A stretch of 31,282 nt of DNA from Bacteriovoracaceae bacterium (GTDB lineage: Bacteria > Bdellovibrionota > Bacteriovoracia > Bacteriovoracales > Bacteriovoracaceae), in contig JBFGZE010000030.1 in NCBI GenBank assembly GCA_041586955.1, forward strand, positions 1 to 31,282, written 5' to 3'. Positions 3,001-9,000 of the stretch are shown here, piece after piece (position 1 is the stretch's first letter; the number at the start of each line of letters is the position of its first letter). A program made the position numbers.

Positions 3001-6000
3001 ATGAAGGACCTAAGTACTGATGCCCTGGATATTGGTTTACGTCAATCCTCACAAAATTTTATGGGGGCCGTTAAAAGGCGGAAAATGTCACGCGATGAGT
3101 TCAGTCGCAAACAACGAAGTATTACGGCGCAATTGGACTATCATGGTTTTAAGCGGGTTGATTTATTGATTGAGGCCATCGTCGAAGATATGAAGATCAA
3201 AAAGGCGGTCTTCGCTGAAGTGGAAAAAGAAGTCCGGCCTGATTGTCTACTCACTTCCAATACCTCTTCTCTTAGTGTCACTGAAATGGCGACAGCTTTA
3301 GAGAATCCTGCTCGTTTTGCTGGGTTACACTTTTTTAATCCCGTTCATCGTATGCCATTGGTGGAAATTATTACTCACGATAAAGTGGCGCCTGAGACGG
3401 TCGAGGCCTTATATAAATGGGCCCTAAAAGTTAAAAAAACACCTGTCATCGTCAAAGATGGCCCGGGATTTTTAGTCAACCGTATCCTTATGCCTTATCT
3501 CAATGAAGCGGGCTTTCTTCTCGAAGAAGGTGTCTCCATTGAAGATATTGATAAGGCCTGTCTCAATTTTGGGTTACCTATGGGGCCATGCCGCCTTCTC
3601 GATGAAGTGGGGCTTGATGTTGGTCAAAAAGTGGCCAAAATTCTTCATGATGGGCTTGGTGATCGTGCCATGCCTTCAGGGCTTGTTGCGGGGATGGTTG
3701 AAAAAGGTATGCTCGGCCGCAAAACTCAGGCAGGTTTTTATCTCTATGATGAAAGTGGCAAGGCCGTCTCAGAAAATGAAGATGCCAAGGCGCTTTTACC
3801 TTCTCATTCTAAAAAGATGAGTGAAGTTGATATTCAAATGCGAGTCATTTTACCCATGATTAATGAGGCATCTATTTGTCTTTCAGAGGAGATTGTTGCA
3901 ACCCCTGGTGAATTAGACTTGGCCTTAATCTTTGGCATCGGCTTTCCTCCTTTTAGAGGAGGTCTGTTGCGCTATGCTGACTCTCAAGGGCTTGACCGTT
4001 TAGTCGAGGCCCTTAATAAGAGGGCGGAGAGTATTGATCCGTATCGCTATGGCGCTTCTCCTTATCTGTTAAATCTGGTTAAGGAAAAGAAGAAGTTTTA
4101 CGAATAAAATGAATACTTCATTTTTTCGCTATCTCGTTCAATTTATCTTTAAGGCCGGCTCTCGCCAAAGATTATTATTTTTGGCCTTGGCCGGACTTTT
4201 TTTAAGCTCCATGGCGCTTATCGTTTTACAATCTGCGATGGGAGGGCTCCAGACAAAAGTTATTGGTCGGTCAAAAACGGCCATGGGCTCCGGCACCATC
4301 TTATTGGAGTCGATGGAGGAAACTCAGGTTCTCAAAATCCTAAAGGCCTTGCGCCATAAATTTCCAGATAATATTATTTTACCTGAGTATGAAATAGAAT
4401 TACTTTTGGGCAAGGGGAAGTTTCTTACGCCTGTCGTTGCTCATGGTATTGACCCAAAGGGCATTAGGCCCCCCTTATTAAAAGATCTACAATTTAATGA
4501 GGTGGTACTAACACGCACGATTCGCGAAAACCTCTCTCTTTGGCAGGATCAGATTCCTATTCGTCTTATTAGCCCGGGCCATGTGGATTCTCTTTTTGAA
4601 GATATTCCCCGGGTCATAGGCCTCAAGGTTGATGATTTTGCCCTCTCTCATGTCAAGGAAGTGGATCAATTTCATATATGGGTTGCCTTAACAAAAATAC
4701 AAAATCTTATTCGTAAAAGAGATCTCAATCGTATTCGCTTTTTTGGTGATCTCGACCGTGACGAAGTTTTGGTTAGCATGAAAGAACTTAATATCCCTGG
4801 TGAGTTAGTCATGTGGGAGGATATTAACCAATCGTTAGTTTGGGCCCTGGGCCTTGAATCCCATGTCATGATTTTTCTCTTTACTGCTATGACCTGCTTA
4901 GTTTCTTTGTGTATTACCTCTGGCCTCTTTATTTTCTTCTCTAAAATAAAAAAAGACCTGACGTCTTTTTGGATTTTAGGAATGGGGAAAGAGGAAATTG
5001 GTCGGCATACATCGCGACTTGTTCTTTTATTATCATTTGCTGCTATTGTTTTAGGTCTTTTTTCTGGAATTGGTCTTTTGGCCTTCTTGGAGCTGACTGG
5101 AATTAATATTATGTCCAGTCGCTTTGTCGACCGAAATGTAGGTTTACATTTGACCGCCTCTAATCTCGCCATTAGTTTTTTTGTCCCACTCGCTATTAGT
5201 TGGATATTCTCGGCCTTATCATTGAAAATTTTTAAAAAAGAAACCAATTATTTAGACTATGTTCGCAGTGTTGGACAATAAGGTTCTATCCATTTGACCG
5301 AATCAAAATTACTTAGATCAAGCAAGAAAATGTAGTGTTTTATTCAGTTATTATTATGCCCTTTAGGTCTAGTCAGTAAGGAATTTCCAACCTTTCTTTA
5401 ATTCTTTCTTTCTTATATTATTATACTAGAGGAAATTATATGAAAATTAATAATAAGGGCTTTTCCCTTATCAGTGTCATGGTTGCAGCTGGCCTATTGG
5501 GAGGGCTTTCATTAGGTGTTATGCAGCTGATAAAAAATATGTCAAACACTCAAACTTTCTCCCAGTCGAGTACTGATTATATCGATTTATCTCAGGAGGT
5601 ATCATTATTAGTGTCGTCCCCTGAAGATTGTACCGCATCTTTTAAAGGAGTTTCTTTTAAAGGGAGTAATATCCAGGGAACTCCTGTCGATGTTGAACTT
5701 TGGAGCGCAGATCAGGATGGAAATCGTTCAAGGTTGAGGTTTTCAGGTAATTCAGATTTTGGAAAGTTACAAATAGATGCCATTCGGCTTTCCATGCCAG
5801 ATTATACTGGTGGGGATTTTCCACAAGGATCTGGTCAGTCTTTTAATGCTCTCTTAGAAATTGTGGGTAAGAAACAAATTACATCAAACCAAGATCGCGA
5901 TATAAAGGCGATTTCTAAATCATTCAAATTATATTTTGACACGGATAGCGGAGGAAATAGTACGATCACAGGGTGTACTGCAGCCTCTTCACCTAGTTCC

Positions 6001-9000
6001 GGGGGGGATGTTGTTTTAGACTCATGCTCCTGGTCTGGTTATGTTAATAATTATGATGGCCCTGTTAATTATACTTGCCCTGGGGATAAGGTTATATCCG
6101 GCGTTAGAAGTGTGCATTCTAACGGAACTGAAGATAGGCGTTTTGAATATAAATGTTGCCGAGCTTCTGTCAGTGGAACTGCATTAGTAAAAAAATACTG
6201 CTTATTTTCTGGAGATGTTAATAACAAGGACAACCTTGTTAATTATACTTGCTCACCTCCACTTGTTTATGGTGGTGTGCAAAGCAACCATGATAGTGGA
6301 ACTGAAGACCGATCTTTTTCATTTCAGTGTTGTGACATGAAACTAACCGAATCGGCAGAAATAAAAGACTGTGAGATTTCTGGTTATGTGAATATTTTCG
6401 ATGGCGCAGTTGATTATACCTGCCCTATCAATAAAATATTAGTTGGGGAGATGAGCTATCACGACGGCGGATTTGAAGATCGCAGATTTCGATATAAGTG
6501 CTGTTCACTGTTGGCCCGCTAGCTGAAGTTAAATGGCCATAATCACACCTTTGCTAAAGAGCGGTCGTATGGCCTGGCCACACCATTATGATGTCATAAT
6601 GGTGTGGATAAAAAATGGTTAAAGTTTTAAGTTTTTAAGCGCAGCAAAGGCATTGTTTTTTAATTGCTTCGTTTCCTGACGAGGTGCTTTGGGGGCCTTC
6701 TTATTGGCACCACCGCGAGTCCCGGTGACAGATCCAGAATCACCTTTTTTTAAACTCATGGCAATGCGTGAGCGGTCAAGATCAACTTCGATTACACGTG
6801 CTTTGACCTCTTGCCCCACTTTAAGAACTTCAAGGGGGTTGTCCACAAAACGATCGGCCATTTCAGAAACATGAACTAAACCATTTTCTTTAATTCCGAT
6901 ATCGATGAAGGCACCAAATTTAGTAATATTGGTAACAATGCCGGTATACCAAGTTCCCGGTTCAAGGTCACTCATTTTGCGGATGTCTTTGCGGAACTCT
7001 GTTGACTGAAACTCTGTCCGTGGATCTTGGCCAGGAGTTTTTAGAGACTTGACGATATCAGCATGTGTGAATTCGCCCAATTCATGGGCCAAGTCTTTAT
7101 CTTTTTCTAATTGCGTAATGAAATCCGTCTCTGCCGCCAATTGCTTTAAGGTACAATTTTTTTGGGTAACCCATTTTTCAAGAAGAGGGTATTTCTCTGG
7201 GTGAATAAAAGTGCTATCCAGAGGATTTTCACCATTATAAATACGCATGAAGCCCGCAGATTGTTCAAATATTTTTTGACTAAAACGGGGGACATCCATT
7301 AATTCGCTACGGGATTTAAAACCACCAATCTTTTCACGAGTCTTAACGATATTTTCAGCTAAGGTCGGGCCGACACCTGAAATATAACTGAGAAGAGGAG
7401 CTGAGGCGGTATTTAAATCAACACCGACAAAGTTGACACAATTTTCAACAATATGGTTGAGGTTTTTTTTCAATTTGGCCTGGTTAACATCGTGCTGGTA
7501 CTGACCGACACCAATACTTTTAGGATCAATTTTTACCAATTCCGCAAGAGGATCTTGAAAGCGACGAGCGATAGAAATGGCCCCACGGACGGTAGCATCT
7601 TTGTTGGGGAATTCTTTAGCGGCAATAGGTGACGCCGAGTATATACTGGCGCCGGATTCATTGACCAAGGTGGCCTTGACTTCACCTTTTTTAATGGCCG
7701 GAATATGATCTTCTAAAAAGTGAAGGGTTTCGCGACCAAAGGTCCCATTTCCCACAGCAATATGCTTAACATTATAATGTTCGATCAAGCGCTCAATGAT
7801 ACGAGCGGATCCTTGAATATCTCGTTGAGGTTCATGGGGATAAATAACAGTATCAAAAAGAAATTTACCAGTATGATCAACGACTGCTGTTTTACAGCCA
7901 GTGCGGACTCCTGGGTCCAGGGCCAATACTGCCTTCGCTCCTAAATAAGGTTGTAATAAAAGACTTTTTAAATTGATGCCAAAGACATCAATCGCTGATT
8001 CATCGGAAGTCTTCTTAAGTTCTGATTTTAGCTCAAGATCAAGTGAACTATGGATATAAAGAGTAAAGGCCTTTTTGGCACAGGCCTCAAGCCAATCAAG
8101 TAGTGGGTGCTTATCATCATCAAAATAAACAGAGCGAATGAGGCCCGTTCCACTTTCTATAGGAAATTGAACTTCAACTTTAAGAACCTTTAGGGTCATC
8201 CCACGGCGCATCGCCAGGAAGCGGTGGCCATTTCTGGGGTCGAGAAGTTCAGATGCCTTTTGCTCAAATTCAAAATAGTCTTTGAATTTTTCAAAATCTT
8301 TAATTTCTTCGGCCTTGGGCCTTTTACTAGAGACGACGACTGCGTCTCTCCAATAATCTTTTCTGAGGGTGTCTTTAATTTCTGGATCGTGGGCAAACGT
8401 TTCAATCAAGATAGCAAAAGCACCATCAAGGGCATCCTTTATGGTCTTAATTTTCTTATCGGGATTGATCAGAGTTTCGGCCATTTTTTGCATCTCTTCG
8501 TGCTGACCTTCACCTTTGAGAATTGCATCCGCTAACGGCCCAAGACCGGCTTCTTTGGCCAACATTCCTTTTGTTTTTTTCTTCGCTTTAAAAGGAGCAT
8601 AGATATCTTCTAATTGAACCAGTGTTTCAGCTTTAAGAATGGCCTGTTTAATTTCCGGTGTCATCATTTCTTGCTTGGTGATCGCTTCAAGAATATAGGC
8701 ACGTCGTTTTTCTCTTTCGAGATAGGCCTCGTAGGTGTCAATAATATTACGAATTTGTTCCTCGTTAAGGTCCCCCGTTTTTTCCTTACGGTAGCGGGTA
8801 ATGAAGGGCACAGTACAATCTTCCATATAAGTAAGTTGGAGGACGGCAGCGACGGATTGAGCTTTAATTTCCGTGGCCTGTGTGGCAAAAATGGCCCCTT
8901 CTGGGTTAATCGTTTTAGACATCTGTGTGTGACTCCTGTAAAAAATAATCGAACCACAATGGTAAGAGAAAGATATGAAATGGCAAGAAGCGAATGTGAA

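What a model noticed while it worked through the whole genome (the two positions that open the first line are those of the whole stretch)
5440..6522. Type IV pilin-like protein carrying an animal-type dermatopontin (DERM/HAAF) domain
g01561 (360 aa) starts with a prepilin-type leader and hydrophobic alpha-1 helix ([sequence left out]) and ends (residues ~190-360) in a complete dermatopontin domain with three D-R-x-F-x-[FY]-x-C-C repeats (EDRRFEYKCC, EDRSFSFQCC, EDRRFRYKCC). The domain is 36% identical over 157 residues to the Limulus haemagglutinin/amoebocyte aggregation factor, an animal extracellular-matrix/lectin family almost unknown in bacteria. The N-terminal pilin module is shared with other 300-415-aa paralogues in this genome that bear different C-terminal parts (g01490, g01806-08, g02712, g03266-67; g02354 with a Peptidase_S74 fibre-chaperone domain), so the genome seems to display exchangeable adhesin heads on [...]
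Evidence so far: pfam.tsv: DERM twice, E 7.7e-26 and 1.1e-22; swissprot.tsv: HAAF Limulus 36.3% over 157 aa E 5e-28, Biomphalaria dermatopontin 34.8% E 6e-23. relatives.tsv: DERM in 2 of 236 family, 5 of 850 phylum and 53 of 189,784 bacterial species genomes. Search of 5.8e9 proteins: 12 hits, only 1 other full-length pilin+DERM protein (65% id.); the other hits share only the pilin half or only DERM. Prepilin motif scan and paralogue blast coordinates. AF2 model from an 8-row alignment: overall pLDDT 59, but a 44-residue N-terminal helix (24-67) followed by a beta-sheet domain (72-181, block pLDDT 49-87), the pilin lay-out; the DERM part is all-beta at pLDDT 45-69.
(Added by a program. Inside this text positions count along the whole contig: contig position 1 is position 1 of the stretch shown here. 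"Call 12" and the like, gene names such as g00115 and contig names such as C1 are that model's own, and its searches are not shown. The text may have been shortened before it was handed on; [...] marks where a part breaks off. The agent that wrote the report below was given it as the finding of a first reader that could run no searches.)

Follow-up and report, generated by a model that had tools for sequence, protein, structure and literature searches.

The report
Pilin-like protein with dermatopontin head
A marine predatory-type bacterium encodes a pilus-subunit-like protein whose outer end is a dermatopontin domain, a cell-adhesion module best known from animals, and it belongs to a large bacterial family that mounts many different binding heads on the same stalk.

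Summary
Window 5440-6522 (+) is an intact 360-aa ORF. Residues 196-360 match Pfam DERM at 155 bits (cut-off 28.3). The N-terminus reads as a prepilin leader, MKINNKG|FSLIS, with Ser in place of Glu5.

New here:
- **Stalk family.** Residues 1-185 define a large family: 565 cluster representatives at E<=1e-3. It was found in 82 of 100 sampled genomes of the window's own taxonomic family.
- **Stalk fold.** With 101 rows, AlphaFold2 gives pLDDT 93.6: a 59-residue helix followed by a beta-sheet. Of the 50 nearest solved chains, 17 are type IV pilins or pseudopilins, but only at Z 3.2-4.1.
- **Swapped heads.** Relatives carry DERM, collagen-IV NC1, VOMI, the Peptidase_S74 chaperone and phage-fibre tips.
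- **Head fold.** The DERM head models at pLDDT 96.1 as three 4-stranded units. The nearest solved folds are Vip3 toxin chains at Z 7.0 and 6.5.
- **Origin.** Bacterial DERMs split from six mollusc DERMs at 99/99 support, so a recent capture from animals is not supported.

Best reading: a modular minor pilin shown at a filament tip as an adhesin. Processing, assembly and ligand are inferred. No pilus genes lie next to it.

The parts
5428..5434 (+). Shine-Dalgarno-like AGAGGAA, 5 nt before the ATG
   Evidence: read
5440..6522 (+). whole gene, 360 codons plus TAG stop
5440..5460 (+). 7-residue basic leader MKINNKG, ending in the Gly expected before a prepilin-peptidase cut
   Evidence: K6 G7 F8 S9 L10 are invariant in 10 relatives, and G7 is invariant in 101.
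5461..5976 (+). pilin-like stalk module (residues 8-179): helix 10-68, then beta-strands 72-181; Cys64 and Cys179 invariant; mature position 5 = Ser
   Evidence: AlphaFold2 pLDDT 93.6, pTM 0.81. C64 and C179 are invariant in 101 rows. Of the top 50 structural neighbours, 17 are pilins or pseudopilins at Z 3.2-4.1.
5977..6024 (+). Ser/Gly-rich linker (residues 180-195)
   Evidence: pLDDT drops to 77 in the last block of the stalk model.
6025..6195 (+). DERM repeat 1 (residues 196-252), Cys pattern C..C..CC
6196..6369 (+). DERM repeat 2 (residues 253-310), Cys pattern C..C..CC
6370..6519 (+). DERM repeat 3 (residues 311-360), Cys pattern C..C..CC
6578..6607 (.). 13-bp hairpin between this gene and the convergent Tex gene
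   Evidence: fold -25.6 kcal/mol, z -4.45. The terminator scan did not flag it because no T-run follows.

Best explanation
The gene encodes a two-module 'modular pilin'.

Shown:
- The N-terminus has a short basic leader and a Gly|Phe junction, followed by a long hydrophobic helix packed on a beta-sheet. This is the lay-out of type IV pilins.
- A short Ser/Gly linker joins it to a disulfide-rich, three-repeat dermatopontin domain that models as three 4-stranded sheets.
- The stalk belongs to a large family centred on the window's own taxonomic family. One relative (P0009) is named Bacteriovoracaceae by its source.
- Members of that family carry many unrelated heads.

Inferred:
- The genome's prepilin peptidase cuts after Gly7.
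- The stalk helix enters a type IV filament, most likely the type IVa pilus.
- Because the head is bulky and Glu5 is missing, the protein sits as the first, tip-most subunit.
- The head binds a surface ligand, such as a glycan or protein on prey cells or other surfaces.
- The genome's eight paralogues, each with a different head, would give alternative tips and so a wider range of targets.
For: - **Leader and helix.** The motif is read directly. It is conserved across relatives. In a motif scan of the 159 proteins then held, 147 matched, and 121 of them have Phe at +1.
- **Homology to bona fide prepilin motifs.** 34 of 148 family members pass Pfam N_methyl. 16 of 25 members pass NCBIfam TIGR02532; those 25 were chosen mostly from members that already had an N_methyl hit.
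- **Fold.** pLDDT 93.6, helix 10-68 plus sheet. 17 of the top 50 solved neighbours are pilins or pseudopilins. The nearest ESM Atlas clusters are N_methyl proteins of Bdellovibrionota, score 0.95.
- **Machinery in the genome.** Peptidase_A24 on C6 and C72. Nine T2SSE-family ATPase matches over the cut-off. Secretins on C20, C6, C72 and C3. A canonical PilA-like gene on C6 and pseudopilins on C20.
- **Head.** DERM at 155 bits; model pLDDT 96.1, 12 strands.
- **Head swapping.** DERM x4, C4 x6, VOMI, S74 x2, Gp53-like_C x2, Gly_rich_2 and Hint, all over their cut-offs among 148 members. Own-genome paralogues share only residues ~4-72.
- **Glu5 is variable in the family.** E 62, S 33, Q 29, G 13 of 147.
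- **Precedent.** Modular pilins are thought to be tip-exposed, and GspK and CofB are tip subunits (passages of PMC8179133).
Against: - The protein itself fails both prepilin profile thresholds (14.7 bits against 21.2).
- Glu5 is absent.
- Structural matches to pilins are weak (Z at most 4.1). Foldseek found no pilin at E<=0.001.
- No pilus gene lies next to it. None of the 24 neighbouring genes of four relatives in other genomes is pilus-related either.
- The genome also has type II secretion and Tad systems, so the filament type is open.
- The ligand is unknown.
Confidence: 0.6

Rival explanations
1. The pilin-like N-terminus is only a membrane anchor or export signal. The protein stays in the inner membrane or periplasm, or is released, and acts as a lectin or sensor without joining a filament.
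For: Glu5 is absent, and more than half of the family lacks it. The genes are orphans, far from pilus operons. The prepilin profiles are below threshold.
Against: An anchor alone would not need the conserved 120-residue beta-sheet module with its invariant Cys pair. Nor would it need the invariant Gly-1 and the near-universal Phe+1. Adhesive heads such as phage-fibre tips and the S74 chaperone make sense outside the cell.
Confidence: 0.2
2. It is a subunit of another type IV filament, such as the tip of the type II secretion pseudopilus or a Tad-like fibre, and not of the type IVa pilus.
For: The genome has a type II secretion cluster with pseudopilins on C20 and a Tad-like cluster on C72. Weak NCBIfam hits of relatives include GspH, GspI and GspJ. 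GspI, GspH, EpsJ and XcpW are among the structural neighbours. Interchangeable Tad tips are described in Myxococcus (abstract of PMC12075869).
Against: The short leader with Phe+1 and the ~170-residue mature stalk are type IVa-like and not Flp-like (recalled knowledge). The other weak hits are to ComGE and PilV. Nothing links it to either cluster by position.
Confidence: 0.12
3. The head targets animal or protist material (matrix, mucus, shell), or makes the bacteria stick to each other, and does not bind prey bacteria.
For: Animal DERM proteins mediate cell adhesion and aggregation (discussion passages of PMC7971027). Sister heads include collagen-IV NC1 and VOMI. The source is a marine metagenome.
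Against: No evidence of host association here. The window is rich in secreted proteases and a nuclease, typical of a bacterial predator. Other heads are phage-fibre tips that normally bind bacterial surfaces.
Confidence: 0.15
4. The DERM part is a recent capture from an animal genome, or an assembly chimera with animal DNA.
For: 42% identity to oyster HAAF. The domain is rare in bacteria.
Against: It is one uninterrupted ORF inside a 31-kb bacterial contig with even composition. The same fusion occurs in other genomes and metagenomes. Nine bacterial DERMs split from six mollusc ones at 99/99, with long internal branches. All three repeats keep four Cys, unlike the animal pattern of 2-4-2.
Confidence: 0.03

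Closest known systems
Modular type IV pilins (PilB and PilC of Streptococcus sanguinis; Raynaud et al. 2021, PMC8179133, passages read)
   Same: A small N-terminal pilin module joined by a short linker to a bulky adhesive module. The paper calls the strategy widespread (over 1,200 proteins, 264 architectures) and proposes tip exposure.
   Different: The stalk here is a distinct family with no Pfam model beyond the N-terminal motif. It often lacks Glu5, is encoded away from pilus genes and occurs in several copies per genome. 'Dermatopontin' does not occur in the paper's three supplementary files. The InterPro numbers I also searched there were recalled from memory.
Dermatopontin / haemagglutinin-amoebocyte aggregation factor family (Pfam DERM PF14704)
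   Same: Three repeats of about 55 residues with the E-D-R-x-F-x-F-x-C motif. 29-42% identity to mollusc members, in register over all three repeats.
   Different: All three repeats carry four Cys (12 in total), whereas animal repeats 1 and 3 carry two. The domain is fused to a pilin-like stalk instead of standing alone behind a signal peptide. No member has a solved structure detectable by sequence.
MAT (mosaic adhesive trimer) fibres of Bdellovibrio bacteriovorus (Caulton et al. 2024, PMC10769870, passages read)
   Same: A predator's multi-copy family with one conserved anchoring end and mosaic adhesive tips, including S74 chaperones and folds known from animal lectins.
   Different: MAT proteins are ~1,000-aa trimeric beta-helix fibres with a beta-rich N-domain behind a normal signal peptide. 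These are 200-590-aa proteins on a pilin-like helix-plus-sheet stalk. 'Pilin' occurs 0 times in that paper's main text.
Interchangeable minor-pilin 'Tips' of the Myxococcus Kil (Tad) pilus (Herrou et al. 2025, PMC12075869, abstract and outline only)
   Same: A predator pilus whose tip exposes variable domains that decide which prey is recognised.
   Different: Those are multi-protein minor-pilin complexes of a Tad pilus, encoded with it. Here the head is fused to a single pilin-like protein and the filament is unknown.
Tip pseudopilin GspK and tip minor pilin CofB (as discussed in PMC8179133)
   Same: Enlarged pilin-family subunits proposed to cap the filament. That GspK also lacks Glu5 is recalled, not taken from a call.
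   Different: GspK's extra domain is inserted in the sheet, not appended. There is no sequence relation. GspI, not GspK, is among the weak structural neighbours.

Membership tests
Type IV pilin / type IV filament subunit | Short hydrophilic leader ending in Gly, followed by about 20 hydrophobic residues | tested here: met
   MKINNKG|FSLISVMVAAGLLGGLSLGVM. The motif is conserved in relatives.
Type IV pilin / type IV filament subunit | Glu at mature position 5 | tested here: not met
   Ser. In the family: E 62, S 33, Q 29, G 13 of 147.
Type IV pilin / type IV filament subunit | Score over the curated cut-off of Pfam N_methyl or NCBIfam TIGR02532 | tested here: not met
   14.7 bits against 21.2, and TIGR02532 not listed. 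Relatives pass: 34 of 148, and 16 of 25 chosen mostly from those with an N_methyl hit.
Type IV pilin / type IV filament subunit | Long N-terminal helix packed on an antiparallel beta-sheet | tested here: inconclusive
   The model has helix 10-68 plus strands 72-181 at pLDDT 93.6. 17 of 50 neighbours are pilins, but at Z 3.2-4.1 only. Foldseek gave none at E<=0.001.
Type IV pilin / type IV filament subunit | Prepilin peptidase and assembly machinery present in the genome | tested here: met
   Peptidase_A24 x2, T2SSE x9 over the cut-off, Secretin x4.
Type IV pilin / type IV filament subunit | Cleavage, N-methylation and polymerisation into a filament | not testable with these tools
   Needs expression and biochemistry.
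Dermatopontin (Pfam DERM) | Profile score over the gathering cut-off | tested here: met
   155.4 bits against 28.3.
Dermatopontin (Pfam DERM) | Three tandem repeats with the D-R-x-[FW]-x-[FY] motif, in register with animal members | tested here: met
   42% identity to oyster HAAF.
Dermatopontin (Pfam DERM) | Animal cysteine pattern (repeats with 2, 4 and 2 Cys in the six mollusc sequences) | tested here: not met
   4, 4 and 4 Cys here.
Modular pilins (sensu Raynaud et al. 2021) | N-terminal pilin module plus a linker plus a separate module not specific to pilus biology | tested here: met
   Two independently folding halves. Definition taken from passages.
Beta-prism I lectin-like folds | Three 4-stranded sheets around a pseudo-threefold axis | tested here: inconclusive
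   12 strands in a 3x4 pattern. Vip3A Z 7.0 (rmsd 3.7 over 117) and Vip3Cb Z 6.5. Six jacalin-type lectins at Z 2.0-2.7, of 18 rows at Z>=2.
Bdellovibrio MAT fibres | Conserved ~130-aa beta-rich domain after a signal peptide, and a trimeric beta-helix shaft | tested here: not met
   The stalk model is helix plus sheet, and the protein has 360 aa. Definition.

The most novel reading that the evidence does not exclude
There are two linked readings.

(1) The window's bacterial family runs a pilus-borne mosaic-adhesin system. Orphan genes supply interchangeable tip subunits, whose heads (DERM, collagen-IV NC1, VOMI, phage-fibre tips) decide what the cell grips. This would be a third, independent solution beside Bdellovibrio MAT fibres and Myxococcus Kil tips.

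(2) The dermatopontin domain began as a one-repeat tip of trimeric bacterial or phage fibres. Fusing three repeats gave the single-chain form that a monomeric pilin needs. On this reading the animal family descends from such a microbial form, not the other way round.
Probability: 0.3. Interest if true: 0.85.

Novelty: new variant of a known kind. Interest (0 to 1): 0.62.

Why it matters
- **Prey or surface recognition.** How predatory bacteria recognise what to attack is largely unsolved. Known answers are MAT fibres in Bdellovibrio and Kil tips in Myxococcus. A widespread pilin stalk with swappable heads would give this other predator lineage a testable set of recognition proteins, gene by gene.
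- **Dermatopontin structure.** The work gives a high-confidence model of a family with no solved structure detectable by sequence.
- **Dermatopontin history.** There is a concrete hypothesis: one-repeat forms sit on trimeric microbial fibres, symmetric three-repeat forms occur in bacteria, and degenerate three-repeat forms occur in animals.
- **In print.** No paper in the searched library holds 'dermatopontin' together with 'pilin' or 'Bdellovibrio'.

Tried and rejected
- **PDB by sequence:** 0 hits at E<=1 for the whole protein.
- **Foldseek against the PDB:** no hit at E<=0.001 for either model. The best for the head was the PCSK9 C-terminal domain (E 0.015, TM 0.44). The only pilin row for the stalk was S. 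sanguinis PilB at rank 33.
- **Sequencing runs:** four marine-metagenome DNA holders from one study, no RNA holder listed.
- **Promoter and terminator scan:** no convincing promoter upstream, and two terminator-like sites inside the gene that look like chance.
- **Positional orthology of repeats between bacteria and animals:** not seen. All bacterial repeats are closest to animal repeat 2, at 37-41% against 26-33%. This cannot separate independent triplication from faster change of animal repeats 1 and 3.
- **Earlier-findings look-ups by place and by sequence:** nothing found.
- **Supplement searches:** the files of PMC8179133 and PMC10769870 hold none of the terms searched. One PDF of the latter could not be read.
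- **Contamination or chimera:** rejected, as set out under the fourth rival explanation.

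
Full report
**Observation.** Window 5440-6522 (+) is an intact 360-codon ORF with an ATG start and AGAGGAA 5 nt upstream.
- Pfam DERM matches at E 1.7e-45 and 155.4 bits, against a cut-off of 28.3, in two overlapping stretches.
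- A repeat HMM built from the protein resolves three units at 196-252, 254-310 and 311-360.
- The N-terminus reads MKINNKG|FSLISVMVAAGLLGG. Gly-1 and Phe+1 are present and mature position 5 is Ser.
- The protein itself stays below the curated prepilin thresholds. Pfam N_methyl gives 14.7 bits against 21.2, and NCBIfam gives only a sub-threshold ComGE hit.

**Surroundings.**
- Upstream lie a thiolase, a FadB-like enzyme and a 390-aa membrane protein with no Pfam family. Downstream is a convergent Tex gene.
- A 13-bp hairpin at 6578-6607 separates the two converging genes (-25.6 kcal/mol, z -4.45).
- The rest of the window holds housekeeping genes and several secreted hydrolases: two Trypsin_2 proteases, two S8 subtilases and an Endonuclease I.
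- No pilus gene is nearby.
- The genome (3.46 Mb, 194 contigs, 88% complete) has DERM only in this gene.
- It does encode filament machinery. There are two Peptidase_A24 matches (C6, C72), nine T2SSE-family matches over the cut-off and four secretins. A motif scan found canonical Glu5 pilins on C6, C20, C22 and C76.
- The DNA is held by marine metagenome runs of one study.

**The stalk is a real, large family.**
- An exhaustive HMMER search with residues 1-190 found 565 cluster representatives at E<=1e-3, 117 at <=1e-10 and 27 at <=1e-30. Most cover query residues ~1-185 and are 95-588 aa long.
- In an alignment of 101 members, G7, C64 and C179 are invariant. Among 10 closer ones, K6 G7 F8 S9 L10, several helix glycines, C64 and C179 are invariant.
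- A motif scan of the 159 proteins then held matched 147. Phe is at +1 in 121. Position 5 is E in 62, S in 33, Q in 29, G in 13 and other residues in 10. A few regex matches may be spurious.
- The family is tied to bona fide prepilin signals. 34 of the 148 members I handed to Pfam pass N_methyl. 16 of 25 members pass NCBIfam TIGR02532; those 25 were picked mostly because they had an N_methyl hit.
- The 148 were the relatives plus the best 142. I left out P0001, P0004, P0010 and the eight weakest listed, because of the 150-protein limit.
- In a 401-genome sample of the phylum, the stalk query matched 121 genomes at E<=1e-5. That is 82 of 100 in the window's own family and 39 of 300 elsewhere. 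Most of the listed weaker matches, in the window's family and outside it, cover only the helix.
- One relative, P0009, is named Bacteriovoracaceae by its source.

**Stalk fold.**
- With the 101-row alignment, AlphaFold2 gives pLDDT 93.6 and pTM 0.81: a helix at 10-68, then strands up to residue 181.
- Foldseek found nothing at E<=0.001.
- The all-against-representatives aligner gave a maximum Z of only 4.3. Yet 17 of its 50 listed rows are type IV pilins or pseudopilins at Z 3.2-4.1. They include the K122-4, PAO1 and P1 pilins, FimA, PilA4, GspH, GspI, EpsJ, XcpW, EpsG, FimT, and S. sanguinis PilA and PilB.
- I read this as consistent with a pilin fold but not proof.
- The nearest ESM Atlas clusters are N_methyl-bearing Bdellovibrionota proteins at score 0.95, which is a lead only.

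**Heads are exchangeable.**
- In this genome, seven paralogues share only residues ~4-72 with the query and have different Cys-rich C-terminal parts. They lie on C157 (two in tandem), C64, C27 and C39 (three in tandem).
- The C64 copy has a Peptidase_S74 chaperone at 49 bits. One C157 copy passes N_methyl.
- Across the 148 relatives, the heads over Pfam cut-offs are as follows:
  - DERM: P0002, P0094, P0112, P0130.
  - Collagen-IV NC1 (C4), 120-218 bits: P0062, P0064, P0076, P0099, P0116, P0120.
  - VOMI, 172 bits: P0147.
  - Peptidase_S74: P0012, P0136.
  - Gp53-like_C tail-fibre tip: P0102, P0109.
  - Gly_rich_2: P0043.
  - A Hint domain: P0020.
- There are weaker hits to H-type lectin, jacalin and T4 gp9/10. 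Most heads have no family.
Genome G171, of another genus, has a 381-aa one with Glu5. Genome G230 has a stalk with a divergent DERM-like triple repeat. P0170 puts DERM on a different pilin-like N-terminus.

**The head.**
- With 21 rows, AlphaFold2 gives pLDDT 96.1 and pTM 0.90: twelve strands, four per repeat.
- No solved structure is detectable by sequence or by Foldseek at E<=0.001.
- The wide structural search gives two Vip3 toxin chains: 6vls_A at Z 7.0 (rmsd 3.7 Å over 117 residues) and 9efg_A at Z 6.5. It also gives PCSK9's C-terminal domain at Z 3.3 and six jacalin-type lectins at Z 2.0-2.7, out of 18 rows at Z>=2.
- That the matched Vip3 region is its beta-prism domain is my recollection, not a tool result. 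The head therefore looks beta-prism-like, with middling support.
- Each of the three repeats has four Cys (C..C..CC). The six mollusc proteins have 4 Cys in repeat 2 and 2 in repeat 3, and 2 in repeat 1 in three of them (3 or 4 in the others).
- The repeats are 42-54% identical to each other. All resemble animal repeat 2 best.

**Relation to animals.**
- Residues 186-360 are 42% identical over 90% of their length to oyster HAAF (E 1e-35), and 30-38% identical to snail dermatopontins.
- In a maximum-likelihood tree of 18 domains, nine bacterial and six mollusc sequences fall on opposite sides of one branch, with support 99/99. Three sequences of unknown source group with the molluscs. Bacterial terminal branches are long.
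- The animal sample is molluscs only and the tree is unrooted. This argues against a recent animal-to-bacterium capture but does not give a direction.
- DERM is rare in the sampled relatives. It is over the cut-off in 3 of 237 genomes of the family and 3 of 401 of the phylum sample, both including this genome, and in 0 of 14 controls.
- Bacteria use DERM in other settings too. It sits at the C-terminal end of a surface protein of more than 669 aa in G411 and of a 581-aa secreted protein, P0171.
- It also occurs as a single repeat at the very C-terminus of P0010 and P0174.
- I tested that idea on P0174 residues 100-200 in three copies. The score was 0.74 against a best control of 0.00. The runs agreed in at least 95% of contacts, and partner pLDDT was at least 91. 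The mark was reached by 21 of 30 proteins solved as pairs and by 0 of 23 solved as single chains. The tool notes that its calibration used two copies, not three.
- The model supports trimerisation but does not show it.

**Mechanism.**
- Shown: the two-module architecture, the family, the head swapping and the presence of machinery.
- Inferred: the prepilin peptidase cuts after Gly7. The stalk helix joins a type IV filament. The bulky head and the missing Glu5 place the protein at the tip.
- The reasoning for the tip is recalled from the GspK literature. In a filament, Glu5 pairs with the N-terminus of the subunit above, so the top subunit can do without it.
- A monomeric pilin cannot trimerise a one-repeat tip, which would explain why the three-repeat, single-chain DERM is the form found on the stalk.
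- S74 and fibre-tip heads on sister proteins suggest that some members may trimerise at the tip, as described for CofB.
- The ligand is unknown. Prey surface glycans are my first guess, from the predator-like gene content and the phage-type sister heads.

**Against this reading.** The curated profiles are failed. Glu5 is absent. Structural Z-scores are weak. No pilus genes lie next to this gene, and none of the 24 neighbours of four relatives in other genomes is pilus-related. Three filament systems compete as possible hosts.

**Comparison with known systems.**
- The closest concept is the modular pilin of Raynaud et al. 2021 (passages).
- The closest biological parallels are the Bdellovibrio MAT fibres (passages) and the Myxococcus Kil tips (abstract and outline only).
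- 'Dermatopontin' was not found in the supplements of the first two papers (one PDF was unreadable).
- No paper in the searched library holds 'dermatopontin' with 'pilin' or with 'Bdellovibrio'.
- A choanoflagellate study lists dermatopontin-domain genes among candidate horizontal transfers (passages).

**Verdict.** It is a new variant of the modular-pilin theme: a lineage-wide, orphan-encoded stalk with many heads. Function is still inferred.

Noticed in passing
relatives P0062, P0064, P0076, P0099, P0116, P0120 (not in the window): Six members of the same pilin-like stalk family end in two copies of the collagen-IV NC1 (Pfam C4) domain at 120-218 bits. This is another module known mainly from animal basement membranes.
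   Followed up: no
relative P0147 (not in the window): One stalk-family member carries a full VOMI (vitelline membrane outer layer protein I) domain at 172 bits. I recall VOMI as a beta-prism fold, like the fold suggested for DERM.
   Followed up: no
P0174 and P0010 (L014 4001-4243): A single DERM repeat sits at the very C-terminus of fibre-like proteins. A three-copy model of P0174 100-200 scored 0.74 against 0.00 for the best control.
   Followed up: partly
relative P0020 (not in the window): A 474-aa stalk-family member has a Hint / homing-endonuclease-associated Hint match (38.6 bits against a 32.1 cut-off) in its head region. This could be an intein or an autoprocessing module.
   Followed up: no
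window 4109-5281 (+): A 390-aa multi-pass membrane protein directly upstream has no Pfam family at E<=1e-3.
   Followed up: no
window 14719-15612, 16176-16919, 18207-19097, 21651-24520: A cluster of secreted hydrolase genes: two Trypsin_2 proteases, an Endonuclease I and two tandem S8 subtilases. This fits a predatory lifestyle.
   Followed up: no
window 6578-6607: A strong 13-bp hairpin between the convergent genes, with an A-run and no T-run after it on the + strand. The terminator scan did not call it.
   Followed up: partly
G000 contig C39 12157-15665 (-): Three stalk-family paralogues lie in tandem, next to a 1,042-aa protein that reads like a hybrid sensor kinase by eye. The kinase was not scanned against Pfam.
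   Followed up: partly
P0173 (not in the window): A 370-aa protein of unknown source joins a DERM domain to a domain listed as PF03318. It groups with the animal DERMs in the tree.
   Followed up: no
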